Position numbers and translations under genes: made by a program. From Candidatus Freyarchaeum deiterrae (GTDB taxonomy: Archaea; Asgardarchaeota; Jordiarchaeia; Jordiarchaeales; Jordiarchaeaceae): a stretch of 64,000 nucleotides of DNA. Below are positions 29,760-54,623 of this stretch, in pieces (positions within the stretch are counted from its first letter, which is position 1; each line of letters starts with the position of its first letter). The DNA lies in the NCBI GenBank assembly GCA_037305845.1, contig CP147778.1, forward strand, positions 1,824,001-1,888,000, given 5' to 3'. The notes beneath the pieces are model-generated. The model was not told the DNA's origin. It saw only the letters and a list, made by a program, of their open reading frames with translations, and searched no databases.

Positions 29760-29884
29760 CCCGCAGTAACTCAGACTGGCTAGAGTGCCCGGCTGTAGAG
29801 TTGCACTTGTCAGTGTGACTATTCCCAGTAGGCACTCGCACAGACACCGGGACGTCGCAAGTTCAAATCTTGCCTGCGGGACCA
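29760..29884 (+). tRNA. tRNA-Tyr(GTA) with a 47-nt intron at 37/38 (29799-29845); CCA encoded
   Basis: Acceptor CCCGCAG/CTGCGGG, anticodon GTA at 29795-29797, BHB CTGT-AG^A / ACAG-AC^A, T-loop GTTCAAATC. Confidence 0.95.
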
Positions 29885-34835: not shown

Positions 34836-34842
34836 AATTCAA

Positions 34843-36522: not shown

Positions 36523-37061
36523 AGCCTGCGATTCTGGTAATTGACATGCTTAACGATTTTGTTCTAGAGGGAGCGCCTCTAGTATGTGGTAAAGTAAGAG
36601 AGATAATAAAGCCGATAAAACGCCTTATAGAACAAGGAAGAAAGAAAAACATTCCAATAATATACGTAACGGACAGCCACGACCCTGACGATAAAGAATT
36701 TAAAATATGGCCGCCACACGCTGTAGAGAACTCTAAGGGCGCAGAGGTTATAGACGAGTTAAAGCCTCAAAAGGGAGAAATAATCGTTAGAAAAAAAACA
36801 TATGACGGCTTTTTCAGGACAAATCTAGAGAAAGTGCTAAAAGAAAAGAAAATCGACACTCTGATACTAACTGGAGTATGTACCGATATCTGTATTCTTC
36901 ACACCGGTAGCACTGCCACACTACTCGGCTATAATGTAAAGGTTCCGAGAGAATGCGTAGCTGCGCTAACAGACGAAGACCACAATTTTGCTCTGAAACA
37001 CCTAGAAAAAGTTCTCAAATCCGAAGTCAATACTTTGGATAATATAATGAAACAACTTTAA
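36519..37061 (+). CDS. Isochorismatase/nicotinamidase family cysteine hydrolase
   Basis: VIDMLNDF, WPPHA and GVCTDIC motifs. Confidence 0.9.
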   Translation: MKPAILVIDMLNDFVLEGAPLVCGKVREIIKPIKRLIEQGRKKNIPIIYVTDSHDPDDKEFKIWPPHAVENSKGAEVIDELKPQKGEIIVRKKTYDGFFRTNLEKVLKEKKIDTLILTGVCTDICILHTGSTATLLGYNVKVPRECVAALTDEDHNFALKHLEKVLKSEVNTLDNIMKQL

Positions 37062-37388
37062 CTGATTTTTATTACTAAAAAATAAAAACTGCTGCCCACT
37101 TTTCCTAATCAACAGGGTCATAACTTTTTCTAATTATAAAATTTACATTACTAACATGAAACAATAGGTTTTGGAGCGACTTTTATACAATGGCCAGTGT
37201 TTTTTATAAAATTATAACTGTCTTATGTTTCAATAATTTTGTTAATATAAATATTAATATTTATGTAATTGTCTCTGTTTAATAAAAATTACTTCGGCAA
37301 AATTAGAACTTTTTTTTAATATTCGCCAAAAGTCTTATATATTATAGTTTATGACCTCTTTAGTAATCTAATTCCTTTTTCTGAGGAG

Positions 37389-38174
37389 TTGTGTCTTATG
37401 AGTAAACTCACTGATGAGAGTAAAAAAAGTCTATGCCAGAGTATTGCTGGTGAAATAGCGTTGTCTGATGATCCAGGTAAAGTAATGCGTAAGTGGAGAG
37501 AGAAATTTCAGATTGCGCAGAAGGATTTGGCTGGATATCTTGGAATCTCTCCATCAGTGATTAGTGACTATGAAAGCGGTAGAAGGGTGTCTCCCCGAAT
37601 AGACACTATGAGAAAATTTGTAGAGTCTCTTGTGGCTATTGATGAGATAAAGGGCGGGCAGATAGTTAATGGTTTGATTAGGATTTTAACCAGGGAAATA
37701 CCCTCAGATATTATTCTGGATATTAGAGAGTTTCCATACGCGATTAAATCTGAGGTTTTATGCGAATACTTAGAATGTGAAGTTCTTGCCAATAGCGAAA
37801 TGTTAAGTCAGCCAATATATGGATACACTGCTGTGGATGTTATTAATGCGATCGTCAATCTATCTTCCGATCAGCTTCTCACGCTTTATGGAGCTACACC
37901 CCAGCGTGCAGCCATATTCACCAATGTAGTTAGTGGAAGAGCTTCTATGGTAGCCATTAAAACGAGTCAAATGGGCACTACTCGTTCATTAAAGCCTTCT
38001 CTACTAATAATTCACGGACCCAAGAAAGTGAATCAAGTAGATCCGCTCGCTATAAAAATAGCAGAGGTAGAACGTATACCCCTCGCAGTAACAAAGATAG
38101 AAAGTGTAGATGCATTAATAAAAGCATTAAGAAGCTTTATGTCAAAGGAAATAACAACTATCACAACTCCATAA
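37389..38174 (+). CDS. Conserved archaeal XRE-HTH transcriptional regulator
   Basis: IAGEIALS..PG..MRKWRE.F and SPSVISDYESGRR.SP motifs. Confidence 0.88.
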   Translation: MCLMSKLTDESKKSLCQSIAGEIALSDDPGKVMRKWREKFQIAQKDLAGYLGISPSVISDYESGRRVSPRIDTMRKFVESLVAIDEIKGGQIVNGLIRILTREIPSDIILDIREFPYAIKSEVLCEYLECEVLANSEMLSQPIYGYTAVDVINAIVNLSSDQLLTLYGATPQRAAIFTNVVSGRASMVAIKTSQMGTTRSLKPSLLIIHGPKKVNQVDPLAIKIAEVERIPLAVTKIESVDALIKALRSFMSKEITTITTP

Positions 38175-38244
38175 AGGATCCTGTCTCAAAAAAAAAGTTT
38201 CAATTCTAAGGGTATGGTTTTTCCCTCAGAAAATATTCTTTGTT

Positions 38245-39255
38245 CTAGTCCTCGTCTCTGAGGTCTATCATGTCTAGTGCTCCAGGCCCAGTTCCTATAA
38301 GGCATACTGGAATTTTTATTACTTCCTCTACTTTTCTTATGAAAGAGAGGCTTTCTTCGGGCAATTTGTCTATTGATCTAGCTCCGCTACATTCTGGATA
38401 GATTACGTCAAATTTTGTAATGGCAGCTTTAGTGGCACCATTTAGCATTACCGCTCTTTTTGCTAATTCAAAATTGAAGGGTGCAGCTCTTCTTTTTCTT
38501 CCAGTTACGGTTCCTGTTTCAAACCAGCCACGCTTTTTAGCCTCTTCTTCAGATAATTCTCCTGGGAGTTCACCCGCCCCCACTCTTGTGGTAAACGATT
38601 TGAATACAATAAAAACCTCATCTATCTTAGTTGGCCCTACTCCCACATCGGCGCAAGCTTGGGAGGCGGTGGTGTCCTTGCTGGTTACGAAAGGATAAGT
38701 ACCATGATATAGTGAGAGAAATGTACCTTGAGTTCCTTCTATTAAAACATGTTCTCCATCATTAATTGCGGTATTAACCTCTAATGGAACATCGGTAATG
38801 TAATTTGCAAGGTCCGGAATGTCTTTTGCTAGTTTAACTTTTCTCATTGCTCTCTCTGCATTACAAGGCCCGCACCCGGAACCTGTGCTTCCAATTTTTC
38901 CTTTAAGAAATGAGGAACCTCTATCTTCTTCTATGTGTTTTTCTTCAATTATTGCGCACTGACGATCAATCTTTAGTCTTTCTCCAACTCCTGTTTCCTC
39001 TGCCTCTTTTTTTAGAACATCAGCATTAACCAGCACACCGGGGCCGATTAGTATTTTGGATTTTTCTTGGACGAATCCGCTGGATATCTGTCTCAACTTA
39101 TAGGTCTTACCCTCGTATTCGACAGTGTGCCCCGCATTTGTGCCAACACCCGCTCGTACACATACTGAAGGCTCATCTTTTATCGCTAGATAAGAAACAA
39201 TTTTGCCTTTTCCTTCATCTCCGAAAAAGCCGCCTACAAGAACATGACAGGTCAA
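38245..39255 (-). CDS. purA: Adenylosuccinate synthetase (short archaeal form)
   Basis: GDEGKGK, NAGHT, EGTQG, YPFVTS, TRVGAG and GTVTGRKRR motifs. Confidence 0.97.
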   Translation of the reverse strand: MTCHVLVGGFFGDEGKGKIVSYLAIKDEPSVCVRAGVGTNAGHTVEYEGKTYKLRQISSGFVQEKSKILIGPGVLVNADVLKKEAEETGVGERLKIDRQCAIIEEKHIEEDRGSSFLKGKIGSTGSGCGPCNAERAMRKVKLAKDIPDLANYITDVPLEVNTAINDGEHVLIEGTQGTFLSLYHGTYPFVTSKDTTASQACADVGVGPTKIDEVFIVFKSFTTRVGAGELPGELSEEEAKKRGWFETGTVTGRKRRAAPFNFELAKRAVMLNGATKAAITKFDVIYPECSGARSIDKLPEESLSFIRKVEEVIKIPVCLIGTGPGALDMIDLRDED

Positions 39256-39489
39256 CCGTTAACCTCCATCAAATTTTTCAAAAGCGATAACTATAATGTT
39301 TAAACCCAATTAGAAGTACACTTATTGCCTATATTTTTCAAATTATAAACCGAATTTCTGATGTCTCAATTTGTTTTTAAGTTTTCCCTTTCCAGTTATT
39401 GAAGATATTAGAAGGTTTTTTGTGTAACAATTATATCCCTTTATTACAATTGTTTCATAACAGTTTAACGAATTGGAGAGTTAAATTAA

Positions 39490-40639
39490 ATGTGGAAACT
39501 AATTCGCCCTGATGCGTATAGAGTTTGGAATGATAGTATTGTTCGAGAAAGGCTTTGGAGATACTACGAGGTATTTAATAACAGACTCAACGCCAAGTTT
39601 TTAATTGCTTTGAAAGTGGGTGCAGATGTGGAACTAGATGCTGAATCGGGTAAGCTCTGGAGTGTACACGATAAAACTAGTGGCATATTCAGAGGCCTCT
39701 TGAAACGTGTTGACACAGGTGAAGTAAAATTAGATGATATGGACTCACCGAAGATTTCTTATTTAGATCTAAAGGTTGAACTTGCCCGTAGAATTCTATC
39801 CGAGTGCCATTTCTGTGAAAGGCGGTGCGGAGCTAACAGATTAGAGGACAAGAAAGGATTTTGTAAATTAGGAAGCGCGTCTTATGTATCCACGGCTTTC
39901 TTGCACACTGGTGAGGAAGCTCCCTTAGTTCCATCCGGCACAAACGCTTAATGAGCATTGCTCTAGCGGTGCATTCTTCTTCTCCAGTTGCACGTTTAAA
40001 TGTGTATTTTGTCAGAACTACGATATTTCAACAAATCCGAAAAGCGGTATTGAAACTTCAGGAGAAAGTCTTGCACGAATAAGTAGAGACTTGAGAAGAG
40101 AGGGTGCAAGAAATGTAAATTATGTGGGCGGGGAGCCAACACCCAATACTTACAACATTTTAAAAGGTATCAGGGAAACCAAAACAAACGTTGCTCAACT
40201 ATGGAATTCTAACATGTACTGCTCTAAAGAATGCATGAAACTTCTGCTAGATGTTATGGATTTTTGGCTTCCAGACTTTAAATATGGAAACGACCAGTGC
40301 GCCGAAAGATTAAGCAAAGTTTCGAATTATTGGGAAATCGTCTCCAGAAACCATAAGATGGCTTACGATGAAACCGTAGAAACCGGAGCGTCAGGTATGA
40401 TCATAAGACACCTAGTTTTACCAAGTCATATCGAATGCTGTACCAAACCGGTTCTTGAGTGGATAGCTAAAAACTGCCCAAAGGCTTTGGTTAATATCAT
40501 GGAACAATATCATCCTACACATGAAGTATCAGGAAACAAGGAGTTCATGGACATAGATAGAAAAGTCACTCATGAAGAGATGGAAGAGGCGTACAGGACC
40601 GCTGATGAATTGGGAATTATCTGGCAACCTGTATCTTAA
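39490..40639 (+). CDS. PflX-like radical SAM protein, intron-split: join(39490..39943,39975..40639), 372 aa
   Basis: Splicing gives HTGEEAPLVPSGTIFFSSCTFKCVFCQNYDIS (CxxxCxxC), in frame with the 40091 ORF (VGGEPTP, WNSNMY, PDFKYGND, IIRHLVLP). Confidence 0.92.
39944..39974 (+). other. 31-nt BHB intron in the radical SAM mRNA
   Basis: G-GCAC-AA^A-CGCT...AGCG-GTGC-AT^T-C; contains an in-frame TAA and shifts the frame. Confidence 0.9.
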
Positions 40640-40884
40640 TAGAGTTAAGTTATCTACAATTCTCAACCCACATCCCTAAATTGAGACAATACATTGAAAT
40701 CATGTTCCGTAAATATTATCTTCGGATTATATTGTCTTAATACATTTTTTAAACGTCTTAGATAAAAATAAAAAGTGTTGACTAGATAATTATAGTTTTG
40801 TTTTAAATGCTGTTTTAAATTTTGAAAGGGTAGATTTTTATCGAGTTTAGATTAAATTGATGCTTAGAGAAGAGTTGATAAATA

Positions 40885-41769
40885 TTGCTTGAAAAAACAG
40901 TAATACCCGGTCCTAGCTCACAGCTCTTGGGACTACGCCTCGCAAGGTGTTTAAAGTCAAGCGTGGTTCCTATAGAGTTTAAGACTTTCCCAGATGGAGA
41001 AAGATACATTCGGATAAAGGAAGAACCAAAGAATGGTCATGCTGTTGTAGTTCAGTCTACGATACCGCCTGATCCCAATCAATGTATAATTGAACTTTGT
41101 TTCATACTTGAAACTCTTAAGGAAATAGGTTTGGAGAAAATCACTGCAGTGATTCCCTATTTCGCTTACGCCCGCCAAGACAAAAAATTTCTACCTGGCG
41201 AGGCCGTAAGTGGAAAGATAATTTGCGATATCATACAGAACGCTGGGGCTGATGAAGTAATAACTGTGGATATTCATAGCAAAAGAATTTTAGAAAATTT
41301 CAAAATTCCCATAAGAGATGTTAGTGCAGTTCCTCTGCTTGGGGAATACTTGAACAATTTTAAACTAACTAACCCCTTAATTATTTCCCCAGATGAGGGA
41401 GCGATTGAAAGGGCTAGAACTCTTGCGGTTTTCATGGATGCTGAATACGTTACGTTTACTAAATCCCGGGATAAGCACACAGGTGAAATTGAAATATTGA
41501 TTAAAGAAATCGATGTTGCTAATCGCGATGTAGTTATAATAGATGACATTATCAGTACTGGCGGAACTATGGCGAGTGCGGTTGAAATCGCTAAGAGTCA
41601 GGGAGCTGCTCGAGTTTATGCAGCATGTACTCATGCTGTTTTGGTGGGTGATTCCAGATTTAAAATTCTTAACGCAGGGGCGAATGAGATAATCGGAACT
41701 GACACAGTTCCCAGCGATGTGAGTTTCGTATCTGCGGCTCCTATTATTGCTGAGGCGCTAAAAGAGTGA
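40885..41769 (+). CDS. prs: Ribose-phosphate pyrophosphokinase (paralog 2)
   Basis: FPDGERYIRI, PYFAYARQD and IIDDIISTGGT motifs. Confidence 0.95.
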   Translation: MLEKTVIPGPSSQLLGLRLARCLKSSVVPIEFKTFPDGERYIRIKEEPKNGHAVVVQSTIPPDPNQCIIELCFILETLKEIGLEKITAVIPYFAYARQDKKFLPGEAVSGKIICDIIQNAGADEVITVDIHSKRILENFKIPIRDVSAVPLLGEYLNNFKLTNPLIISPDEGAIERARTLAVFMDAEYVTFTKSRDKHTGEIEILIKEIDVANRDVVIIDDIISTGGTMASAVEIAKSQGAARVYAACTHAVLVGDSRFKILNAGANEIIGTDTVPSDVSFVSAAPIIAEALKE

Positions 41770-42812
41770 GACAAGACCAATTTTATATTTTGTCAGGAGA
41801 GAATCCCACTATTCCAAGCGCTGAATGCCTAGCAATTCTTGAAAGCCTCAATATACCCTACAAAGCAGAAAAATATGAACAGGTGCTAATTTTAAACTCA
41901 GAGGAGGAAAGCTGCCAACGAATAGCTGAGCGGGCTGCAATGGTTCACAATTGTTGTATTTTACTAACTAAAAGTGAAGCAAACATTGACCAGATAATGG
42001 GGTCTGTTCGAGAAATAGATTTTCAAAAACACATTTCTAACGATGATACCTTCGCCGTGAGAATAAAGCACATAAGTAACTATTCACAGGAATTAAGTTC
42101 AACTCTCCTTGAAAAAGAAATTGGAAACATAATCCATAAAAGTGTAGGAGCAAAAGCGAATCTCAGAAACCCCGATAAATTACTTTATGGGGTCCTAACA
42201 GAGAATGTTTTCATATTTGGAAAGAACGTTCGAAGATCCGAAAGGAAAACACTGGGTTTAAGAAAAGCCAAGTTTAGACCCTTTTTTATTCCCAGTTCTA
42301 TGAACCCCCCTCTTGCTAGAGCAATGGTTAATCTGTCTAGAGCTCGCCCCAAAGGTATTTTTTACGATCCATTTTGTGGAGCTGGAGGACTTCTAATCGA
42401 AGCCGGACTTATGGGATGTAAACTCATAGGTTCAGACATCGATATAAAAATGGTTTTAGGAACGGAAAAGAACCTCAAACATTTCAACTTAGAAGATTGG
42501 AATATACTTCAATCAGATGCCAAAAACTTGACTATAAACAAAGCTAATAGTATAGCGACAGATCCACCTTACGGAGGAGCTGCCTCCACTAAGGGTATCC
42601 GCCGCGAAAAACTAATTGCGGGTTTCATAGAAGAAATAGCCGGCATATCTAGTTCAGTTGGATACATATGTATGGGTGCGCCCTCCACAATAGACTTGGA
42701 AGAACTTGTTAAAGAAGCAGGTTTACAGACAGTAGAAAAACATTTAGTACGAGCACACAAGAGTTTAACCCGCCAAATTATAGTATTAAGAAAGCCAACT
42801 TCTGACAGCTGA
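41766..42812 (+). CDS. THUMP-domain tRNA (guanine-10 N2) methyltransferase (Trm11/TrmG10 family)
   Basis: RPFF.PSSM...ARAMVNL, DPFCGAGG, TDPPYG and HKSLTR motifs. Confidence 0.9.
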   Translation: MRQDQFYILSGENPTIPSAECLAILESLNIPYKAEKYEQVLILNSEEESCQRIAERAAMVHNCCILLTKSEANIDQIMGSVREIDFQKHISNDDTFAVRIKHISNYSQELSSTLLEKEIGNIIHKSVGAKANLRNPDKLLYGVLTENVFIFGKNVRRSERKTLGLRKAKFRPFFIPSSMNPPLARAMVNLSRARPKGIFYDPFCGAGGLLIEAGLMGCKLIGSDIDIKMVLGTEKNLKHFNLEDWNILQSDAKNLTINKANSIATDPPYGGAASTKGIRREKLIAGFIEEIAGISSSVGYICMGAPSTIDLEELVKEAGLQTVEKHLVRAHKSLTRQIIVLRKPTSDS

Positions 42813-42876
42813 AGACAAATATTTAAACAAAAAGACATTTTTTCCTACAAATGAAATAAACTTCTCGTATAGGAAT

Positions 42877-43791
42877 GTGAAAGAATTGCTGAGAGTCATT
42901 ATCCTGGGAACCTCAGGGGGAATTCCTACCGTTGAAAGAAATCTCCCAGCGATAGCTGTAAAGATAAGCAAGGAAATCATTCTGTTTGATTGTGCTGAGG
43001 GAACACAGAGACAGATGGAAAAGGCAAAGCTGAGTGTGGGCAGGATTAATAAAATTTTTGTTACACATCTTCATGGAGACCACATAATGGGAATTCCTGG
43101 AATACTGCAAACACTTTCACTTCAAAACAGAAAAACGCCTCTTCATATTTTCGGTCCGGAAGGTACTGGGGCTTTTATTAAAGCTATAAAAACTACCGTA
43201 AATTTTACTCTCACGTTTGACGTTTATATCAAAGAGATCTCTGAAGGAATAATATTTGAAGGGAGTGATTACTACATCAATTGTGTTAGAACCGAGCACA
43301 CCGATAACTCCTTTGCCTTCGCTTTCATTGAAAAAGATAGACCCGGGAAATTTTACCCAGAAAAGGCTAGCACTCTTCAGATACCAATGGGGCCGCTATG
43401 GAGAAAATTACAATACTGGCAAGCAGTCACACTACCCGACGGAAGAACAATAGAACCCGGTGAAGTGGCGGATCCTCCAAGACCAGGAAGAAAAATTGTG
43501 TATACAGGAGACACCGCTCCGTGTGATTCTGTTGTACAAATAAGCAAAGGCTCCACTCTCTTAATACATGAGAGTACTTTCGGCGATGACTTGGAAGAAA
43601 AGGCTGTGGAAACAAAGCATTCCACGGCAGCACAAGCTGCGAAGGTGGCTAAAGAGGCTGGCGTCGAAAAACTGGTTTTAACACATATAAGTTCAAGATA
43701 CCCAAACCCGAATGAATTGTATGAACAAGCCAAAAAAATTTTTGAAAACACTAAAGTTGCAAAGGATCTGATGGAGATAGTTTTTAATTAG
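42877..43791 (+). CDS. rnz: Ribonuclease Z
   Basis: LGTSGGIPT, DCAEGTQRQ, THLHGDH, YTGDT, HESTF and LTHISSRY motifs. Confidence 0.96.
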   Translation: MKELLRVIILGTSGGIPTVERNLPAIAVKISKEIILFDCAEGTQRQMEKAKLSVGRINKIFVTHLHGDHIMGIPGILQTLSLQNRKTPLHIFGPEGTGAFIKAIKTTVNFTLTFDVYIKEISEGIIFEGSDYYINCVRTEHTDNSFAFAFIEKDRPGKFYPEKASTLQIPMGPLWRKLQYWQAVTLPDGRTIEPGEVADPPRPGRKIVYTGDTAPCDSVVQISKGSTLLIHESTFGDDLEEKAVETKHSTAAQAAKVAKEAGVEKLVLTHISSRYPNPNELYEQAKKIFENTKVAKDLMEIVFN

Positions 43792-43898
43792 CGATACAGA
43801 AAAATATTATGAAAAATTTTGTTTATCAGCGATTTTAATAATACCTGCTGTCAGAAGTATCTTCTTAGTTTTATGCGGCTCACTAGGTCTTCTTCCTT

Positions 43899-44330
43899 TT
43901 AGCTGTCTATGGGAGGTTCTCGCTCTAGCGGTCTTCCCTCTACTGTTTTTGGGGAGAGCCAGTCAACTAATTCTTCTATGTTGCTGCTTCTGATACTTAT
44001 TTTTATAGAGCCCATCGGGGATTCTGCTTCTGGGTGGCTGAAGTGAATTTTACCCATGAAGGCGGCCTGCTTATGAAGGTAAAAAGTTACAGTGTCCCCG
44101 ATTACGCCTCTTCTTATGATTTTTCTTGCGGATTCAACTATGAGTTGATCTCTTAGGCGCTGGTATATTTTCGAAACCCCCTCCAGTCCTTGAGCTTTGC
44201 CGTGAAGAATATTTTGTCCATCTTTTTCTGAAAGTGAGTAGTCTATATCCACGATTGCTTTTAGGGCTTTTTCTACCTTCTCTCTACTCTCGGTGGGGTA
44301 TACGGGGGCTTCGATTTCTAGTTCTATCAT
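43899..44330 (-). CDS. UPF0201/DUF54 putative RNA-binding protein
   Basis: VYPTES.EKV..A and LHKQAAF.G motifs. Confidence 0.85.
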   Translation of the reverse strand: MIELEIEAPVYPTESREKVEKALKAIVDIDYSLSEKDGQNILHGKAQGLEGVSKIYQRLRDQLIVESARKIIRRGVIGDTVTFYLHKQAAFMGKIHFSHPEAESPMGSIKISIRSSNIEELVDWLSPKTVEGRPLEREPPIDS

Positions 44331-44875
44331 TTTATTATCTTCCCCAGAATTGTTCGCATTTTTTCAATTAATTCATCCTCACATCCTTCGTTTACAATTA
44401 GGTAATCCGCTAGGGCCATTGCTGATCTGATTCCAAAATTTGTCTCTCTAGCGTCTCTTTCTTGAAAAGTTTTGATATCCAGTGAATCATCAGAGCGTTC
44501 ACGTTCGCATAGACGTTTGAAGCGTGTTTCGGGTGATGCCTGAATAGCAACTAAAGTGAAATCAGGATAATGCTTTTTGAATAATTCTATCTCCTCGAGG
44601 CTCCTGATCCCTTCAACCAAGACAATACGAGATTTTTCTTTTTCGATTTTGGGTAAGGTCCTATTTGCCACAGCTTGCGATCCTTCCTCTTCGCGTAAGC
44701 CCTTTGATACCTTGCCCAAATTTTCTGGTGTTTCCTCTAAACCTCTTAATTTTACTTCCTCCCGAACTACGTCCCCCATCGATACTACTGGTATACCTCT
44801 ATCTTTTGCTGCATTAACTGCCAGTGATTTGCCGGAGCCGGGCATGCCGACAAACGCTATGATTTTCTTCTTCAA
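44327..44875 (-). CDS. UPF0200 dephospho-CoA-kinase-like P-loop protein
   Basis: VGMPGSGKS, SMGDVVREE, EGIRS and RSDD motifs. Confidence 0.88.
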   Translation of the reverse strand: MKKKIIAFVGMPGSGKSLAVNAAKDRGIPVVSMGDVVREEVKLRGLEETPENLGKVSKGLREEEGSQAVANRTLPKIEKEKSRIVLVEGIRSLEEIELFKKHYPDFTLVAIQASPETRFKRLCERERSDDSLDIKTFQERDARETNFGIRSAMALADYLIVNEGCEDELIEKMRTILGKIIK

Positions 44876-44959
44876 AACCTACACCCATTAGTCCGCAGAA
44901 AATAAATTTTTGGCAAGTTTTGGAGATCAAAAATAATTTGGATTGTTTATGTTTCTGTT

Positions 44960-46081
44960 TTAGGTGAACATTTTTGGTTTTTCTTTTGATTGTTTCTCGT
45001 TGAGTAGCTTAAGCGTTATCTCTATTATTTCTTGTGTTACACTGCCCTTATCTTGCAGAATTGCTTTGTGGAGAGCTGCTTTTAGAAGTTTTTCTTTAAG
45101 GTCTCTACCGGAGAAGCCTTCTGTGTTCATAACTATTTTTTTAATATCGGCTTTTACTGGTAATGGCATTTTCGATATGTAGAGTTTGAGGATTTGTTCC
45201 CGTTCTTCGGTACTAGGCAGTTTGAATTCGATCTCCTCTTCAAATCTGCTTTTTACAGCCTTATCTAAGGCGGTGGGGTTATTTGTGGCTCCAATGCATA
45301 CTACACCTAGGTTAGCGCTTAGTCCGTCCAATTCCCCTAGGAGTGCGTTGACTATCTCTGATACGTCACCTCTAATATTCTGAAAGCTACGGTCCAGTCC
45401 TATAGCATCGATTTCATCTAGGTATATAATGCTAGGCGTGTTGTCTGAGGCTATTTTGAAAATTTGGTGCACTCTTCTAGAGGCGTCTCCCACATTAGCT
45501 CCGATTAAATCAGTGGATTTAATCAAATAAAACGGTGAATTTGTTTCATTGGCTAGAGCCTGAGCCAGCATGGTTTTCCCCGTGCCCGGGGGACCATAGA
45601 ATAGAATGTTTTTTGGCGCCCATTCTCCGAAAGCCTCTGGGTTTTCTAAATACTTCTTGATTATTAGACACTTGTTTTTCGCTTCATTCTGTCCTATAAC
45701 ATCTGGGAAATGAACTTTCAGCCTTTTCTCCTCTGTTAATGGCTTCCTTTTCAGGATGAAACGGGTGGAAAGGTTTATTCTTCCCTGTTTTGGCTGCGCA
45801 TCAGTTACTTTAAAAGCAAAATCAGGGAAAACCAGTTGGTCGAACAGGTAGTCTCCTTTCTTAACATAAATTCCCGCCCATTGTTCTCGGGCGTAGGCTT
45901 GAAACAGTTCAATATCATCTGTTAGTAAGGCGATGGGGGAATCTTCTCCAGCGAGGCGAAAAGGATAACCTGATGGCTGGAGCTCCAAAACTGAAAGGGA
46001 TTGAATGCGGCTTTTCTTTTTTGCATGCTCCTCTCGTAAGGAGGTAGGCAGATGTATAATTTTCTCACTATTTTCTCTCAA
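44960..46081 (-). CDS. Archaeal AAA+ ATPase (COG1223-type)
   Basis: YAREQW.G, WAPKNILFYGPPGTGKT, LDEIDAI and RGDVSEIVNALL motifs. Confidence 0.9.
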   Translation of the reverse strand: MRENSEKIIHLPTSLREEHAKKKSRIQSLSVLELQPSGYPFRLAGEDSPIALLTDDIELFQAYAREQWAGIYVKKGDYLFDQLVFPDFAFKVTDAQPKQGRINLSTRFILKRKPLTEEKRLKVHFPDVIGQNEAKNKCLIIKKYLENPEAFGEWAPKNILFYGPPGTGKTMLAQALANETNSPFYLIKSTDLIGANVGDASRRVHQIFKIASDNTPSIIYLDEIDAIGLDRSFQNIRGDVSEIVNALLGELDGLSANLGVVCIGATNNPTALDKAVKSRFEEEIEFKLPSTEEREQILKLYISKMPLPVKADIKKIVMNTEGFSGRDLKEKLLKAALHKAILQDKGSVTQEIIEITLKLLNEKQSKEKPKMFT

Positions 46082-46140
46082 AAATCTTTCACCCTACCGC
46101 TTGTGACATCTTTATAACCGTTTCAGAGTTCCTTTTAGAA

Positions 46141-47451
46141 TTATACCTCATTGAATTGCATAATTTTTAGATTTACGGGTTTCTTTGTAATGTTTTCCTG
46201 TCGCACACCTAAAATGTATTCCGCACCTTTTTCTTGGGATATGTCCACTAACCTCTGAGTTATTATGCCGTCAAGAATAATGGCTTTCACCGAGTTCATT
46301 TCTTTCAGACTCTCTGCCAGTGAAGATACTTCTATTTCTTTGATTAACTCGAAGTTCTCCCCCAAAAGTACAGCTTTATTAGAAGAGGGAATACCTGACA
46401 AATGGCTCAAAATTTGCTCAGGAAGTTTAGGTTTCGGAGGGGCTTCCACCTTTTTATATCTCTTTACCTCTTTTTCTCTTTCTTTTCCCTTTTCTTTTTC
46501 CTTCTCTTTTTCTTTTTCTCTTTCTTTTCCCTTTTCTTTTTCCTTCTCTTTTTCTTTTTCTCTTTCTTTTCCCTTTTCTTTTTCCTTCTCTTTTTCTCTT
46601 TCCCTTTCCTTCTTTTTAGGTTCTTCTGATTCTTCTTGTTCTATAGGCAGTTTATTTCTTAATGCTTTAACCACTTCTTTTTGGCTGAGCTCTTCGACTT
46701 CTCTGCCTGGAGGGGCACGAGCTATGTAAGCTATGTCCGCTATTTGTTGGAGTTCTTTTAGAATCAAGTCTCCTCCCCTATCTCCATCTAGAAATGCTGT
46801 AATTGATTTTTTCTTACTGAGCTCAGTTACAGTCTTTGGTACACTCGTACCTTCAACTGCTACCACGTTCTTATAACCACATCTCAAAAGATTAAGAACA
46901 TCAGCTCTTCCCTCTACAATTATTATGTCATCAGAGGCATCAATACTCGGTCCAGCAGGCAGCTCTTCAGGACCGTATTTCTCGATTTCAGCGACTCGAA
47001 CAGCGTCCATAACCTCATCAGTGATCTGTTGGCTTTCAGGTGACACGTCTTCGGACCATTTTCGAATAATATCCGCCGCTCTTTCTACAATCTTCTTCCT
47101 TTTAACCTCACGAACATCTTCGATTATCTCTAGAGTTGCATGAGCTGTACAGGGTCCGACTCTATCCACGGTTTCCAGCGCAGCAGCTAACATCGCTGTC
47201 TCCACTTTATCCAAACTTGAGGGAATTATCACCGTTCCAGTTGATTTACCCGCTTTTGATTCTATGGTCACTCTTATTCTGCCTATCCGACCCGTTCTCT
47301 GAAGCTCACGTAGATCAAGCTCAGCTCCCAATAAACCTTCAGTCTGTCCAAAAACAGCTCCAACCACATCTGGTTTTTCAACCACACCGTCTACATCTAC
47401 TTTAGCTTTTATAATATATTTTGTCGTGCTAAATTCATTCTTATTAACCAT
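46141..47451 (-). CDS. dnaG: Archaeal DnaG (TOPRIM; exosome-associated primase-like protein)
   Basis: [28 protein letters not shown] and DGDRGG motifs. Confidence 0.96.
46469..46594. repeat. Three exact 42-bp tandem repeats encoding the Lys/Glu linker of DnaG
   Basis: TCTTTTTCTCTTTCTTTTCCCTTTTCTTTTTCCTTCTCTTTT at 46469, 46511 and 46553. Confidence 0.92.
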
Positions 47452-47626
47452 GTAAGCGTCACTTCCATTAAGTAAGTTAAGAAATGAAATGTGAAATGAA
47501 TGTAAGATTCAATTAATAATCCTGAATTTCAAAGCTCCTCAAATACCAATATGCATACACATACTGTTAACATTAACGATACTTTCGGGATAATTATGCT
47601 TTTCTCTTTTGAACTACGAAAAGGGT

Positions 47627-48040
47627 TTACCAGTCGATACTAACGTTTTTCCATGATTGGTTTTGGAGATTAAGATATGAAGAAGCTAACCCTTCAATAT
47701 CACAGGTGATTTTCGAGACTAAATTTTGGAATCTTCTTCTGAAACTCCGCGTTAAATCAACCTTTCGGCAATCTAAGTAACGAGAGAGACGCAAAGCCAA
47801 TACTCGTCCTTCACGGTCAAAGTCTGTTAAAATCAAGAAGTTTTCAAACTGCGCCAGCTCTTCTGCAACTTTTAAAAGATTTTTTCCAGACAGCCTAATA
47901 ATCTGCCCGCTAACTCCTAATGTTCGCAAACTTCTCTCATCTTTGAGACCCTCTACGACAATGGGGATACCGCTATCAGAGAATATCTTCAGCATGGAAA
48001 TTAACTGATCCAATTCGTCAAAGAAACTATTAATAAACAT
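47627..48040 (-). CDS. Small TOPRIM-domain protein
   Basis: IVVEGLKDERSL and ILTDFDREG motifs; ATG at 48040 preferred over the longer ORF start. Confidence 0.85.
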   Translation of the reverse strand: MFINSFFDELDQLISMLKIFSDSGIPIVVEGLKDERSLRTLGVSGQIIRLSGKNLLKVAEELAQFENFLILTDFDREGRVLALRLSRYLDCRKVDLTRSFRRRFQNLVSKITCDIEGLASSYLNLQNQSWKNVSIDW

Positions 48041-48165
48041 ACTCAACCATCCACGTGAACAAGGAAAAACTAATAATGGTAAACTCTCTAAGCACCAGAT
48101 ATAAGTGGAACAAAATAAATTTTTCTTATTTTTAAAGCAATCGGTACCATGTATAACAGAGATTA

Positions 48166-49296
48166 TCACCGTGTTACTATTGCCTTTTTTAAGGCTTCAA
48201 GAAGGTCGTGTGCTTCATTGTTTTCTTCAAAATGCCTCCTAACATTTTCCAATAGATTAATGAGCGCCTCCGCAGTGGCTTGCTTCAAATCCATGGGATG
48301 AAGATTACCACCAGCATAAGCTGATTTCAATTCGTCAAAACTCGTAAAGTCCACAGGCCCTCCGAATTTCTCCTTACGTTCCACATGAAGCTTAGAACCA
48401 TCTCTCGAAAGAAGGAGAAGCCTATTTATCTCGATTATCGGATTAAACTCCAACTGTTTCGGTGGGCAAAAAGCCGCTCCAATCTTCGCCCTTATATCCT
48501 CCGGCGTATCATGGATAAAAACAGCGGTCTGAGGCTTAGATTTCGACATCTTAGCCTCCATTAAAGCATCCTCATCCTCCTCCTCTCCCCCCTTTTTAAC
48601 ATCCATTCGTGATAAGCCCTGCAAACCAATCAGAAGAGGTGTATGAATAGCCACAGGCTTCCAATCCAAACCCAACTTGGGAGCCAACTCCCTAGCAAGT
48701 ACATGAGCCCTCCTCTGATCAGTTCCCCCCAAACACAACTTAAAACCAGAATACAAAATATCAGCAACCTGAATACAAGGATAAAGCGTTTTAGAATAAT
48801 CAGACTCCGCCTCATCCACCTTACGGCCCATAATACTCATAGCCCTCTTAACACGAGCAAGAGTAATATTCTTAGCAACATTAATCACCGTCCCCCAATA
48901 ATCCAAATCATCCATAAGATCCTCTGCTCTCTCAAACTGAACCCTCCCAGTATCTATACCCAGCGACTCCAAACAGTGCTCAATGTACCTCGCACACATG
49001 TGAATAGTATCCATGTCTCCACCAAACTTGTCATTAATCTTAGCATGCCAAGTTGCCTCGAGAACATGCACATCAGCATCAGCCAGAACCAAATCCTGAA
49101 GCTTCCAAGCCCAAACCACCCAACCTATATGAAATATTCTGGAACCATTAGGACAACTAAAGGCTTATCCAGAAGGCTCAACACCAATATAGGCTTTAGG
49201 ATGGCTTTCAACCTCAAACAAACTCTGCAAATCCTCAACCGTAACAACCTCATCCAAGCCACGCGAAACCATCTGAACCTTTTCCTCAGTATCCAT
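48166..49296 (-). CDS. tyrS: Tyrosine-tRNA ligase, intron-split: complement(join(48166..49136,49167..49296)), 366 aa
   Basis: GGAGG precedes ATG 49296. Splicing gives AYIGVEPSGLFHIGW (HIGH-type motif). YPCIQVADI, GGTDQRRAH and KMSKS lie downstream. Confidence 0.95.
49137..49166 (-). other. 30-nt BHB intron in tyrS mRNA
   Basis: T-CTGG-AT^A-AGCC...GGTT-CCAG-AA^T-A; the unspliced RNA reads an in-frame TAA just after the 5' junction. Confidence 0.88.
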
Positions 49297-49563
49297 CAGT
49301 AATTCCTCCAAATCAATATTTAATATAACCAAAACGCAAACATCATCAACAACAACGCACAATCAAATATCTGCAAAAAATAATAATAAAACCGTAATTA
49401 AAACTTTCCCAAAGTAAGTACAAACATCGAAAAATAGAAACCCAAAGTTAAACCCTCCACAAATATTCCAAAACAACGCATTTTTTTTCAATTCAATTAT
49501 AATTCAAAATTTCGTGGTGTTCAAATACCATTTTTTAAAGAAAATAGAATGAGATGATATAAA

Positions 49564-49905
49564 TTGGATCCATACTGGTTTATGTACGACCCCCTCACCC
49601 AAAGCCTGCTCAATATCATCTTCGGAATAGTCCTAATAGTCGGAATAGGTCTACTCGTCATGAACATAGTAAAACTGGCAACCTCTCACCAACGCATGGG
49701 ACCCACCATAGGTCTGATTCTAAGCTTACTCATCATCGGACTATCAGCCTCATGGCAATCCGTCCTACCCATAATCGCACAAACCATGGGAGGAGTGGTA
49801 CAATACCTCTCAATCTACCTCTACACACTCATCTACCAATGGATAGCACAACACACAACCACAACAACCGCCACAGCACTCCTACTACTACCACTACTAC
49901 TATAA
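49564..49905 (+). CDS. Small multi-pass membrane protein
   Basis: 113-aa ORF with 3-4 hydrophobic segments. Confidence 0.65.
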   Translation: MDPYWFMYDPLTQSLLNIIFGIVLIVGIGLLVMNIVKLATSHQRMGPTIGLILSLLIIGLSASWQSVLPIIAQTMGGVVQYLSIYLYTLIYQWIAQHTTTTTATALLLLPLLL

Positions 49906-49996
49906 TCAAAAACCAACGCAAAGCTAGCGATGGAAAATAACCGGTTCTCTATCCTAATAAAATAAAAAAGCGTTAAATTCATGAATATCCCAAAAG

Positions 49997-50064
49997 CCTA
50001 AAAAACACAAACAGAGCAAAGCAAAAAAACCACCAACAAACAGTAAATAAAAATAGTAAAATCA
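49997..50064. repeat. 68-bp direct repeat, left copy
   Basis: 63/68 identical to 51884-51951 in an ungapped alignment. Confidence 0.85.
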
Positions 50065-50439
50065 AATAATGCAACGAAAAACCCACACCATCCTCAAATA
50101 CACACCTCATTCTTTATCCCGCTCTTCCACAGAGAAAAAACCAAACAAAAGAGTATAAACCCCAGCTTGCATAATCCCCCAATTCACACAAGCTCTCCTT
50201 ACCCCCAACAAAAAAGAATCCGATAAAACAAAAAGAGAAAAGCCAATAACTAATAATTCAAACTTCCCATCCCTGTCACTATTATCGAACCCATCAACCA
50301 CCACAGAGAAATAAAAGAGACAAAAAACAATATATCAACCCGTTATACTTCTCCACATTCCCTCCCATCAAGCAAAACAAGACATAAAAAAATTTATAAG
50401 ACGCCTCATCGCCCTAAACAAAAGAGAGGCGGAAAAAGG

Positions 50440-51816
50440 ATGAAACTCCCAAAAGAAAATACAAACAATAAAAAGTCGAAAGCAGGGACACCACCCGCAC
50501 CACCGACATCACCCGCGGCAGGGACACCACCCGCACCACCGACACCCCTCGAAGGAAATCTAACCTTCGAAGCAAAGACACCCCCCGCAGCAACGCCAAC
50601 CCCCGAAGCAAAATCAATAATGGACGGTTATTCCGAAGAAGATAAAAAGTTAATAGAATTAATAATAGAAGTATATTCCCAAAATTTTATAGAAAAATTT
50701 CCTAAAAGAAAGAAGGAGGAGGAGGAGAGGGAGAAGAAGAAGTTAACGGAGGAGGAGAAGGAGGAGGCGAAGGGGAAGATCGAAACACTATTACTTATAT
50801 TGAGAGAGGAGGAGGAAGAGCAGGAGAAGAAGCAGAAGGAAAAGGAGGAGGAGAGGGAGAAAAAGAAGTTAACGAAGAAGCAGAAGGAGGAGGAGAAGCA
50901 GAAGGAGAAGGAGAAGGAGGAGGAAATGAAATCTCCACTGCGTGGACTTGCTTTGCTCTTTTTAGACTACGAAAAAGTCGAAAAGAAATATTTGCCCAAA
51001 CAAGAAAAAATAGAAGAAATAACGGGTAAAGGGGGACAAGAGGGGAAAGATCTCTATGAGTATATAAAAAATGAAATTTATGGAATCACAATTCATAAAC
51101 TAATATTAAAAATTTATGATCAGCGTCTCGAGAGAGTAACTGAAAGAAAGGAAAGAATCAATAAGAAATTGGACGAAATGGAAGACAAGAGTTACGGTTG
51201 GGTTGCTAAAAATTCCAAGAGATTATTTTGGATCGGTGTAGCTATTGTTTTTTCATCTATACTTATACCCTTAGGAGTTTGGATTTTATCCTCTTGGACA
51301 TTTTGGCAATTACTTAGTACTATTCCAGTATACGCACTAATTGCAACATCCACATCAACACCAGCAATATACACAACATTACCTGCAATAATCACATCAT
51401 TACCCTGGCAACAATTAAATAACACATCCCTAATCTCAGGAGGAATAGGCGGAACAGTAGGCCTAAGCACTATAATTACAACCTTGATTAAAGGAGCATT
51501 CCAAGAAATAAAGAGCGCCTCATTAGACAGAGTCCAAGTTACACTACTCCAAGATGCGTATCGTGACAAAATCAGGAAGATAACAATACAACTAGAACGA
51601 GATCTATACGATATAGTTGAAGAGAATCCGGCAAAGAAGAAAACGGAAGAGGAGAAAAACAATCAATGGAAGTATTTCTTTGATGTGGAAAAAAAATTTT
51701 ATCAAGATGAAGCTCAAATATATGAAGAATTAGCAAACGATCTACAAAAATACGTCGAAGGCATTATAAAAACCGAAAAGAGTAACAACAAAGATAGTAA
51801 CAACCAAAAAGAGTAG
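50440..51816 (+). CDS. Hypothetical membrane protein with Pro-rich repeats and Lys/Glu coiled-coil tracts
   Basis: AGTPPAPPT twice, KE-rich repeats, central hydrophobic segments; GAGGCGG upstream. Confidence 0.75.
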   Translation: MKLPKENTNNKKSKAGTPPAPPTSPAAGTPPAPPTPLEGNLTFEAKTPPAATPTPEAKSIMDGYSEEDKKLIELIIEVYSQNFIEKFPKRKKEEEEREKKKLTEEEKEEAKGKIETLLLILREEEEEQEKKQKEKEEEREKKKLTKKQKEEEKQKEKEKEEEMKSPLRGLALLFLDYEKVEKKYLPKQEKIEEITGKGGQEGKDLYEYIKNEIYGITIHKLILKIYDQRLERVTERKERINKKLDEMEDKSYGWVAKNSKRLFWIGVAIVFSSILIPLGVWILSSWTFWQLLSTIPVYALIATSTSTPAIYTTLPAIITSLPWQQLNNTSLISGGIGGTVGLSTIITTLIKGAFQEIKSASLDRVQVTLLQDAYRDKIRKITIQLERDLYDIVEENPAKKKTEEEKNNQWKYFFDVEKKFYQDEAQIYEELANDLQKYVEGIIKTEKSNNKDSNNQKE

Positions 51817-51883
51817 TAACAACGCAAATAATAGCAAAAAAGAGAACAGACAGAGAAACAAAATACACGCTCAACAACCAAAC

Positions 51884-51951
51884 CCTAAAAAACACAAACA
51901 GAACAAAGCAAAAACACCAACAACAAACAATAAATAAAAACAGTAAAATCA
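51884..51951. repeat. 68-bp direct repeat, right copy (just downstream of the ahcY stop)
   Basis: 63/68 identical to 49997-50064. Confidence 0.85.
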
Positions 51952-51984
51952 TGAAACACTGAAACCAAAGAAAAAGGGTTAGGC

Positions 51985-53601
51985 TCAGGTACCCTCAGCC
52001 CAACCATGAATATACGCATCCTGCTCTGGAGTCAGAACATCCAACTTAAGACCCATAGCCGCGCACTTTAATTGAGCCACAGTATTATCAATCGCTTCGG
52101 GAATATCCAAAACAACACTGCCCATCTTAGACAAAGACTCCCTGTTCTTGACAATATACTCTACCGCCAAAGCTTGGTCTGAGAAGCTCATGTCCATAAC
52201 CTTACCAGCCACATGCATAGTAAAAACTCCCAAAGGTGTTGGTTTATTGTGGGATGACATTTTTTGATTTGACTCAGTATCCCTCTGCTTAACACTTCTA
52301 CATAATGGTGTTAAGGGAGAACTAGAAATACTGGTCCACAATCCGCCACCACAGCAAGTTCACACATCTAGAAGTTTTAATTAAACATGTGGTCACTGGG
52401 GTGCCCCTCTGCACAAGCTAGATTCACAAGTCTGCCTTGTCCGAGTAGGTAAATTTTTCTTCCGTCTTTCATTGTGTATTCGTCGACTAGTGGTCTCAAC
52501 TCTCGTTTGCTGACACTGAGTTTCTCTAGGTCCGGTATGTTTATTTCGACATTGAAGTGCCCAGTGTTACAAATTGTCGCCCCGTTTTTGAACTTCTTCA
52601 TATGCTCTGCGTTAACCACGTTTTTACAGCCCGTAGCTGTGACGAAGATGTCGCCTACCTCAGCGGCTTCTATCATGGGCATCACATCGAATCCCTCAAG
52701 TGCAGCCGTTAGCGCTCTGTGTGGGCTAATCTCGCAGATGATAACTCTTCTGGCGCCTAGTCCCTTGGCTCTTATCGCTACGCCTCTACCGCAATGACCA
52801 AAACCAGCGACTACAAAAACTTTACCTGCTATAAGATCCGCTGTTGCTCTTAGTATGCCGTCGATGGTGCTTTGTCCGGTTCCCCACAGGTTATCAAATT
52901 TGGGCGCAAACACTTCAGCGTTTACGTTTCCCATTTTGTGGGGGTGTCGTTAGTGGCTAAAATCGGATAGAGTAATACATTATCTTTGGCCATAGCCCTC
53001 AACCGAACAATTCCGGCCATATGTTTAATAAAAACTCTCAGGGGCATTAATGATTTAACATATGGATTCCGGTCGTGGTTTCTTCGGCTCCGGCCCATAC
53101 GGTGTCTGCCCAGTCTTTTTTTTCTCCTAGGATTTTTTTGACTATTTTTATTTCTTCTCCTGTTTCTCCTCTTTTCAGTTTGATGAGTGTTGATACCAGG
53201 TCGGCGCCGTCGTCCAGAGTAATGTTGGGTTTCGCTTTGATTACGTTGGCTATTGCTCTGTAGTAGCCTTCGTGGTCCATTCCTTTCCAGCCGTAGGTGG
53301 ATATGCCTTCTTTTACCAGAGCTGCGACGACGTGGTCCTGTGTTGATAGTGGATTAGAAGCGCATAGGTAGACCTCAGCGCCGCCTGCTTTCAGGGTTTT
53401 CGCGAGCACCGCGGTCTCCTTGGTTAAGTGGAGGCATGCTCCCACTTTCACGTTTTTGAGTGGTTTCTCTTTGGTGAATCTTTGTTTTACTTGCATGAGT
53501 ACCGGCATGTGTGCTTCTGCCCATTCTATTGTGCTCTGTCCGCTTGGCGCCAATTTCATGTCTTTGACTTCGTATTTTTCTCCTTTTTCTGTTTGTGACA
53601 T
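51985..53601 (-). CDS. ahcY: Adenosylhomocysteinase, four exons: complement(join(51985..52202,52394..52898,52928..53010,53067..53601)), 446 aa
   Basis: Spliced product reads [10 protein letters not shown]...SNPLSTQD...DDGAD...[13 protein letters not shown]...[18 protein letters not shown]...[21 protein letters not shown]. Exon lengths 535+83+505+218 = 1341 nt. Confidence 0.95.
52203..52393 (-). other. 191-nt BHB intron 3 of ahcY
   Basis: ACC-CCAG-TG^A-CCACATG...CATGTGG-CTGG-TA^A-GGT; splicing restores H-P-S-E-V-M-D. Confidence 0.93.
52899..52927 (-). other. 29-nt BHB intron 2 of ahcY
   Basis: AA-TGGG-AA^A-CGTAAACGC...GTGTTTGCG-CCCA-AA^T-TT; splicing restores K-W-E-F-D-N. Confidence 0.93.
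53011..53066 (-). other. 56-nt BHB intron 1 of ahcY
   Basis: A-CCGG-AA^T-CCATATGTT...AACATATGG-CCGG-AA^T-T; splicing restores T-T-T-G-I-V-R-L. Confidence 0.92.
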
Positions 53602-53720
53602 TGTTTTTTTCACTCCTTTGTGGGGTGTTTTGTCTTTCTTTTATGGGTTTAGTCTTATAAAAGTTATATATTTGGGTGTGGATAGTTTGCACATGGATAG
53701 GCGTATTTTGTGTGGTTTTT

Positions 53721-54623
53721 ATGCTGTTGGATGCTGTTGAGAAGGCGGTTTTGAATCTTCTGTTAGAGGATTCTTCTCTTGGGATTGTGGGTTTGGCGGG
53801 GAGGCTTGGCAAGAGTCGTAATCATGTAGCCAAGCTGGTTAATCAGTTGTTTGAGAAGGGGGTTTTGAGGAGCTATAGTGTGGTTTTGAATCCTCTGAAA
53901 ATATTGTATGATCGTAGCATTTTTCTGTTTGTTAAGACTAATCCTCATGAGAATGCTATTGTTAGGGGCTTGTTGAGTCTCCCGGAGATTCAGGTTCTTG
54001 ACGGGATTTCTGGTGAGTATTCTCTTTTGGGTTTGTATCGTTTCCGGTCTCCTTCGGAGTTTTCGTCTTTTCTTTCCGGGCTTGATCGGTTGATGGTTGT
54101 TTCGAGGTTTAAGAAGTATCGTTTGGTGGAGGTTTTGGCTACTTTTAAGGAGTCTGGGTTTACTGTTCCGGAATCTAAGGGTGAGTCTTCTGTTCTTTCT
54201 GAGTTTGATTGGAAACTGCTTGGTGCTCTTAGGCAGCAGGTGGTTCGTACGCCTTATTCTCAGACCGATATAGCGAAAATGTTGGGTGTTTCGCAGCCTG
54301 TTGTTTCGAGAAGTATCTCAAAGCTGCGGAGCGAGAATGTGATTATTGGTTATACTGCTCGTATAAATTTTTCAGCAGTTGGTTTGGAAGCGAAGTTTTA
54401 TTTAGAAATTAGAGTTGATCCGCGTTCCTATCTTTCAGTGGCTAAGAAGCTTTGTGAGTTTGATGAGGTGTGGAGTTTGTATCGGTCTGGTGAGGAGTAT
54501 GGTTTGATGGCTGTTATTCGTGTGAGAGATATTAAACACTATAATCAGCTTCTGCTGAAGATTTTTGAAATGGATGATATTATAGATACTTATTCCAGTG
54601 TGGTTTTTCAGGAATGGATGTAA
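53721..54623 (+). CDS. Lrp/AsnC-family regulator with tandem HTH+RAM units
   Basis: Two HTH-RAM modules (ISGEYSL, RSGEEYGL); divergent from ahcY. Confidence 0.85.
   Translation: MLLDAVEKAVLNLLLEDSSLGIVGLAGRLGKSRNHVAKLVNQLFEKGVLRSYSVVLNPLKILYDRSIFLFVKTNPHENAIVRGLLSLPEIQVLDGISGEYSLLGLYRFRSPSEFSSFLSGLDRLMVVSRFKKYRLVEVLATFKESGFTVPESKGESSVLSEFDWKLLGALRQQVVRTPYSQTDIAKMLGVSQPVVSRSISKLRSENVIIGYTARINFSAVGLEAKFYLEIRVDPRSYLSVAKKLCEFDEVWSLYRSGEEYGLMAVIRVRDIKHYNQLLLKIFEMDDIIDTYSSVVFQEWM

What the first reader, a model, noticed from the sequence alone, without database searches (positions are those of the whole stretch)
49137..49166. Intron at the HIGH-type motif of tyrosyl-tRNA synthetase
Seen: the insert lies between EPSG and FHIGW and creates an in-frame TAA. 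The register CTGG/CCAG with bulges ATA/AAT gives EPSGLFHIGW, whereas the alternative register TGGA/TCCA would leave a stop. tRNA-Tyr at 29760 also has an intron. Inference: the synthetase and its cognate tRNA would both depend on the same endonuclease, which could couple their production.
Basis: partly seen in the sequence, partly recalled or inferred. Interest (0 to 1): 0.75.

Follow-up and report, generated by a model that had tools for sequence, protein, structure and literature searches.

The report
tRNA-type intron splitting Asgard tyrS gene
The only tyrosyl-tRNA synthetase gene of this Asgard archaeon is broken at its active site by a 30-base insert shaped like a tRNA intron, so its mRNA almost certainly has to be spliced, and at least 15 other protein genes of the genome look the same, whereas published work confirms such splicing for only two archaeal mRNAs.

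Summary
Observation confirmed. The single tyrS of this 3.58-Mb Asgard genome (Freyarchaeum/Jordarchaeum genus) carries a 30-nt insert (49137-49166, minus strand) with an in-frame TAA, one codon before the HIGH-type motif. Cutting at the bulge-helix-bulge (BHB) sites gives EPSGLFHIGW and a 366-aa TyrRS. Intron-less homologues have Leu at that position (98 of 106) and never Ile, which the other stop-free cuts would give. All 5 congeners and further metagenome contigs carry a 30- or 31-nt insert at this site: central helix and 3' bulge invariant, interior diverged. The 31-nt forms shift the frame, which excludes read-through. Both exons are under purifying selection. Two EndA subunits and RtcB are encoded. 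The 3' site is relaxed (no adjacent exon helix), and no RNA data cover the gene, so splicing is inferred. The proposed tyrS/tRNA-Tyr coupling is not specific: most tRNA genes of this lineage have introns, 16 protein genes carry such inserts (including cbf5 and rtcB), and the other synthetases tested are uninterrupted. It works like the crenarchaeal cbf5 intron; I found no paper on tyrS or on genome-wide use. This scan noted tyrS introns before in other genomes, including this genus.

The parts
49305..49309 (-). Shine-Dalgarno-like GGAGG, 8 nt before the tyrS ATG
   Evidence: sequence; kept in congeners
49167..49296 (-). tyrS exon 1 (43 codons plus one base, ending ...YIGVEPSG)
   Evidence: dN/dS about 0.16-0.47 against four relatives on 41 codons
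49169..49172 (-). exonic strand of the central helix, CTGG
   Evidence: invariant in 9 distinct variants; the Ser wobble base in it and the Gly wobble base next to it are both invariant, against 7 of 47 four-fold sites overall
49166..49168 (-). 5' bulge AT^A (AC^A in some relatives); predicted cut after the second base
49137..49166 (-). 30-nt intron; creates an in-frame TAA (49167-49165)
49143..49165 (-). intron-internal hairpin (imperfect stem, 5-nt loop); 23 or 24 nt and variable in relatives
49139..49142 (-). intronic strand of the central helix, CCAG
   Evidence: invariant in 9 variants
49136..49138 (-). 3' bulge AA^T; predicted cut after the second base
   Evidence: invariant in 9 variants
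48166..49136 (-). tyrS exon 2 (FHIGW ... KMSKS ... stop). The 317-aa ORF called by annotators lacks the HIGH motif
   Evidence: NCBIfam PRK08560 346 bits, starting at profile position 50; dN/dS about 0.07-0.16
39944..39974 (+). 31-nt BHB insert in a radical-SAM (PflX-like) gene; same kind
53011..53066 (-). ahcY insert 1, 56 nt, helix CCGG/CCGG
52899..52927 (-). ahcY insert 2, 29 nt
52203..52393 (-). ahcY insert 3, 191 nt, helix CCAG/CTGG; removal restores GHPSEVMDMSF

Best explanation
A genuine endonuclease-type (BHB) pre-mRNA intron. The tyrS transcript folds so that CUGG in exon 1 pairs with CCAG at the intron's 3' end around a short hairpin. The two-subunit splicing endonuclease EndA cuts after the second base of each 3-nt bulge, and RtcB joins the exons, rebuilding a Leu codon (U+UA) and the HIGH-type motif. 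Unspliced message yields a 43-residue peptide. The intron was gained once on the stem of this genus and is one of many in a lineage with permissive, heavily used EndA splicing. It persists because it sits in a catalytic motif where only exact loss is tolerated. Shown: insert, geometry, conservation, single gene copy, enzymes encoded. Inferred: cleavage, ligation, and the lack of a special regulatory role.
For: The register restores LF, the residues of intron-less homologues (Leu in 98 of 106, Ile in 0; G033 and G020 read EPSGLFH). 6 of 6 genus genomes and further metagenome contigs carry a 30- or 31-nt insert at the same cut sites; 31-nt forms shift the frame and stop codons differ. 97.5% of cells are paired over 9 variants. 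Wobble positions at the motif are frozen. Purifying selection on both exons. Sole tyrS. Two EndA-family genes and RtcB present. A blind homology test gave 11 other loci with the 3-nt-bulge geometry against 0-2 for each control bulge size, including the known cbf5 site. The intron-bearing tyrS genes form one clade (100/99) among intron-less relatives.
Against: No transcript evidence. No adjacent exon helix at the 3' bulge, and the BHB fold is not the predicted minimum-energy fold. No double-sided compensatory change in the two outer helices, which are almost invariant, so covariation does not itself prove the pairing.
Confidence: 0.9

Rival explanations
1. The intron is real and also a regulatory device: EndA/RtcB capacity limits TyrRS output and couples it to tRNA maturation, either for tRNA-Tyr specifically or for a set of genes that includes rtcB itself.
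For: tRNA-Tyr has an intron. Several interrupted genes serve RNA metabolism (cbf5, gatE, rtcB, alba). The rtcB insert at LPD|AHQGY is present in all six genus genomes. The tyrS motif is relaxed, so splicing could be rate-limited.
Against: Nearly all tRNA genes have introns. The other synthetases tested are uninterrupted. Many interrupted genes are metabolic (ahcY, nadE, porA, ppsA, leuC, pcm).
Confidence: 0.15
2. Relic of a mobile homing intron: a BHB intron that once encoded or travelled with a homing endonuclease targeted the conserved HIGH site and then shrank. This concerns origin and is compatible with the best explanation.
For: The site is the most conserved motif of the gene. Deletion derivatives of mobile rRNA introns are proposed as a source of cbf5 introns (PMC2738675). 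Unchecked scan notes report tyrS introns at this motif in other phyla and nucleases beside tyrS.
Against: No LAGLIDADG_3 match in this genome (one family only). All 9 variants are 30-31 nt. No similar sequence elsewhere in the genome beyond chance 12-13-mers.
Confidence: 0.3
3. No splicing: translational recoding (read-through, bypass, frameshift) or a split TyrRS made from two ORFs.
For: In this genome the insert is in frame with a single TAA. A GTG at 49119 could start a 317-aa ORF.
Against: Relatives have one to three stops of different kinds, or a +1 shift. Ten extra residues would split the HIGH loop. The two ORFs together omit the FHIGW codons.
Confidence: 0.04
4. Pseudogene or assembly artefact.
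For: Metagenome-derived genome; in-frame stop.
Against: Identical insert in three independent assemblies; same site across the genus; dN/dS well below 1; no other tyrS in a closed genome.
Confidence: 0.02

Closest known systems
cbf5 pre-mRNA intron of Desulfurococcales and Sulfolobales (Watanabe 2002; Yokobori 2009, PMC2738675)
   Same: Short (16-44 nt) insert in a catalytic motif of a conserved gene; relaxed BHB; cuts after the second base of each bulge; variable interior; associated with the heteromeric EndA. This genome has an insert at the cbf5 site too.
   Different: Different host gene (an essential synthetase) and phylum (Asgard); one of at least 18 inserts in 16 genes rather than a lone case; splicing not shown here.
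HVO_1309 BHB intron of Haloferax volcanii (Schwarz 2020, PMC7714728; review PMC10485636)
   Same: EndA-cleaved BHB element in an mRNA.
   Different: Lies in a 5' UTR and does not break a reading frame; alpha2-type enzyme.
tRNA introns of Freyarchaeia and Atabeyarchaeia (PMC11291895; bioRxiv 10.64898/2026.10.13.758758)
   Same: Same lineage, same motif, similar size, repeated gains.
   Different: Those papers treat tRNA genes only; my term searches found no mention of mRNA introns.
Archaeal TyrRS, PRK08560 family (PDB 2cya is the closest solved relative of the clade)
   Same: Spliced product has the HIGH-type and KMSKS motifs at normal spacing.
   Different: Gene is interrupted.

Membership tests
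Archaeal BHB (EndA-spliced) pre-mRNA intron, cbf5 type | 4-bp central helix joining the exon 1 end to the intron 3' end | tested here: met
   CTGG/CCAG, 4 WC pairs, 9 of 9 variants
Archaeal BHB (EndA-spliced) pre-mRNA intron, cbf5 type | 3-nt bulge closed by an intron helix at the 5' site | tested here: met
   ATA or ACA followed by a 4-7 bp stem
Archaeal BHB (EndA-spliced) pre-mRNA intron, cbf5 type | 3-nt bulge closed by an exon helix at the 3' site (strict form; relaxed forms are accepted in cbf5) | tested here: inconclusive
   AAT invariant, but only one exon-exon pair; predicted open loop. Fits the relaxed form only
Archaeal BHB (EndA-spliced) pre-mRNA intron, cbf5 type | Cuts after the second bulge base restore the conserved protein | tested here: met
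   EPSGLFH(I/L)GW for 30- and 31-nt forms; matches homologues
Archaeal BHB (EndA-spliced) pre-mRNA intron, cbf5 type | Host encodes a heteromeric EndA and the RtcB ligase | tested here: met
   Two PF01974 genes and one PF01139 gene; subunit assembly not tested
Archaeal BHB (EndA-spliced) pre-mRNA intron, cbf5 type | Spliced mRNA, or EndA cleavage demonstrated | not testable with these tools
   No RNA holder listed; the laid runs do not cover the gene
Mobile archaeal intron with homing endonuclease | Intron-encoded or adjacent LAGLIDADG ORF | tested here: not met
   30 nt; no PF14528 match in the genome; neighbours are a Toprim gene and a small ORF
Group I / group II self-splicing intron | Ribozyme core of several hundred nt | tested here: not met
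   Length 30-31 nt
Archaeal TyrRS (PRK08560) | Profile score above cut-off; HIGH-type and KMSKS motifs | tested here: met
   346 bits against a cut-off of 220 for exon 2; motifs present in the spliced product

The most novel reading that the evidence does not exclude
Freyarchaeum-type Asgard archaea run a genome-wide, protein-only pre-mRNA splicing regime in which tens of core genes need EndA/RtcB, and it is used for control: the ligase gene rtcB itself carries such an intron (a feedback loop) and relaxed introns such as the tyrS one set output. This would be a regulated intron-exon gene architecture in Asgard archaea, independent of the spliceosome.
Probability: 0.2. Interest if true: 0.88.

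Novelty: new variant of a known kind. Interest (0 to 1): 0.64.

Why it matters
Print confirms EndA splicing for only two archaeal mRNAs (PMC7714728, PMC10485636). Here an essential synthetase, and by the same test 15 other genes, appear to need it, in a member of the lineage closest to eukaryotes. If confirmed, archaeal mRNA splicing is a routine part of gene expression in some Asgard groups. It also offers a testable model for how introns arise and become fixed in conserved motifs. In practice, databases list this clade's TyrRS as 302-336-aa fragments lacking the catalytic motif, so annotation and metabolic inference for these genomes miss or truncate such genes.

Tried and rejected
RNA evidence: no RNA holder listed; four runs laid on 34500-54000 did not cover tyrS or any insert. 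Uninformative either way.

A de novo genome scan without homology did not separate the true geometry from controls, so only homology-supported inserts are counted. My first motif-free census was swamped by antisense shadow ORFs and had a length bias against in-frame inserts; sites were re-examined one by one. One search used a wrong frame, corrected. Relaxed ARAGORN was noise, so the tRNA-intron fraction is taken from the paper. No donor sequence for the intron in the genome. P0099, a short tyrS from another clade, lies at a contig end and could not be checked. Breaks at C1:2485072, 2174694 and 634525 gave no convincing BHB and are not counted. Paper searches found no report of tyrS introns or Asgard mRNA introns; the library lacks most subscription papers. 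tyrS introns in Bathyarchaeia and DPANN, reported in scan notes, were not checked.

Full report
Setting. The window lies in a closed 3,576,204-nt genome. Its tyrS relatives at about 80% identity are labelled Freyarchaeota, Jordarchaeia and Jordarchaeum madagascariense. The size matches the 3.58-Mbp soil Freyarchaeum genome of PMC11291895; that identification is my inference.

Observation. On the minus strand, tyrS starts at ATG 49296 behind a GGAGG and reads ...YIGVEPSG*AFSCPNGSRIFHIGW. Removing 49137-49166 gives ...YIGVEPSGLFHIGW and 366 residues with KMSKS. The ends form CTGG/CCAG with bulges AT^A and AA^T around a hairpin; the shifted TGGA/TCCA register leaves a stop. Neighbouring stop-free 30-nt deletions give EPSGIFH. 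Among 106 intron-less homologues the two residues before His are LF 63, LV 30, FF 4, LI 4, MF 2, QF 2, LA 1, and never I-x, so the protein family independently picks the BHB register. The local fold is significant (z -3.45), and the geometry is rare at random positions (about 3e-5). This is the only tyrS; the other family hit is TrpRS. Three independent assemblies carry the same insert.

Comparative evidence. All five congeneric genomes and further metagenome contigs have an insert at the same cut sites. Nine distinct variants exist, 30 or 31 nt long, with one to three stops or a frameshift; every one splices to EPSGLFH(I/L)GW. The central helix and 3' bulge never vary; the hairpin interior does. 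The Ser and Gly wobble positions at the motif are invariant, against 7 of 47 four-fold sites overall, although synonymous divergence between these genes is 0.15-1.7. Both exons show dN well below dS. No double-sided change occurs in the two outer helices, so the support is conservation plus length variation, not covariation. In 161 Asgard genomes searched, a stop-bearing insert at this motif was seen only in this genus (frame-shifting inserts elsewhere could be missed). The intron-bearing proteins form one branch (100/99) among intron-less tyrS of Sifarchaeum, other Asgard and TACK archaea: one gain on the genus stem is the simplest reading. The sister family in the same order has a tyrS of another clade.

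Structure caveat. Only one exon-exon pair flanks the 3' bulge, and forcing the BHB costs 2-5 kcal/mol over the predicted minimum in all nine variants. This is the relaxed type. Published cbf5 introns mostly have unconventional BHBs, cut by the heteromeric endonuclease (PMC2738675). The genome encodes two EndA-family proteins and RtcB.

Is tyrS special? No. I joined the flanks of every candidate helix in the genome and kept those aligning without gaps to proteins of another complete Asgard genome, G011. Eleven loci passed with the 3-nt-bulge geometry, against 0-2 for bulges of 1, 2, 4, 5 or 6 nt; tyrS was not among the eleven, so this is independent of it. They include the known cbf5 site. Site-by-site follow-up gives 18 inserts in 16 genes: an HD protein, alba, rtcB, gatE, cbf5, a gene at C1:1500539, porA, nadE, ppsA, a PflX-like gene, tyrS, ahcY (three), pcm, rps26e, an EndoQ-like gene and leuC. 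Names other than tyrS, ahcY and rtcB rest on my recognition of motifs or on scan notes. Sixteen have a 4/4 central helix and two have 3/4. The count is a floor, since only genes shared with one small genome were tested. The rtcB insert is present in all six genus genomes, with a perfect CCCG/CGGG helix in the other five. The other synthetases tested (class I Ile/Leu/Val/Met, Cys, Glu, Arg, Trp and the class II hits) lie in uninterrupted full-length frames. tRNA-Tyr does have a canonical intron, but so do 92-95% of tRNA genes in these genomes.

Mechanism. Most likely (0.9): EndA cuts both bulges, RtcB joins U to UA to remake the Leu codon, and full TyrRS is translated; unspliced message gives 43 residues. 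The cleavage rule is established for tRNA, rRNA and cbf5; its application here is inferred, since no RNA data cover the gene. Origin is open. A shrunken homing intron is plausible, but no nuclease of the one family tested and no donor were found.

Comparison and novelty. It works like the cbf5 intron and meets every testable defining feature except the strict 3' exon helix. Reviews list only cbf5 and HVO_1309 as EndA-spliced mRNAs; the two Asgard intron papers treat tRNAs only. My searches found no report on tyrS. Taken alone the intron is a new member of a rare kind; with its genome-wide context it is a new variant. Earlier notes of this scan describe tyrS introns in this genus, in Bathyarchaeia and in DPANN archaea, and other Asgard mRNA introns. 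I used them as leads only; those on this genome that I re-tested agreed.

Verdict. Real, conserved, very probably spliced; not specifically coupled to tRNA-Tyr; RNA proof missing. Interest 0.64.

Noticed in passing
L036 (G000 C1:1452796-1452824, minus); L121-L125: The RNA ligase gene rtcB itself carries a 29-nt BHB-type insert at LPD|AHQGYGF (3/4 central helix here; 30 nt, 4/4 and with a stop in five congeners). The ligase would need its own activity to be expressed.
   Followed up: partly
window 52203-52393, 52899-52927, 53011-53066 (minus): ahcY has three BHB inserts (191, 29, 56 nt). The 56-nt one is flanked by a CCGGAAT direct repeat; the 191-nt one is strongly folded.
   Followed up: partly
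window 39944-39974 (+): 31-nt BHB insert in a radical-SAM PflX-like gene at PSGT|IFFS.
   Followed up: partly
G000 C1:1483415-1483446 (minus): 32-nt canonical BHB insert at GHSGTL|DPK of cbf5, the same site as the published crenarchaeal cbf5 intron.
   Followed up: partly
G000 C1:987065, 1125569, 1472160, 1500539, 1589354, 1619887, 1661638, 2244134, 2278919, 2285374, 2636158: Further 20-33-nt BHB inserts in conserved motifs of HD protein, alba, gatE, an unnamed gene, porA, nadE, ppsA (3/4 helix), pcm, rps26e, EndoQ-like gene and leuC.
   Followed up: partly
L023, L025 versus window 48166-49296: The sister family in the same order has a tyrS of a different clade (near the G011 type), while this genus has a TACK-like tyrS; one of the two was probably replaced.
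   Followed up: partly
window 46141-47451 (minus): DnaG-like primase with a repetitive, highly charged KEKEKE linker.
   Followed up: no
G000 C1:2485072 (minus): Radical-SAM gene with a +1 shift in a T run and no BHB; sequencing error, pseudogene or programmed shift.
   Followed up: no
G000 C1:1974719 and C1:2176614: Two full-length CysRS-family genes.
   Followed up: no
window 50440-51816 (+): 458-aa ORF with Pro/Ala/Thr repeats, a Glu/Lys-rich coil and membrane segments.
   Followed up: no
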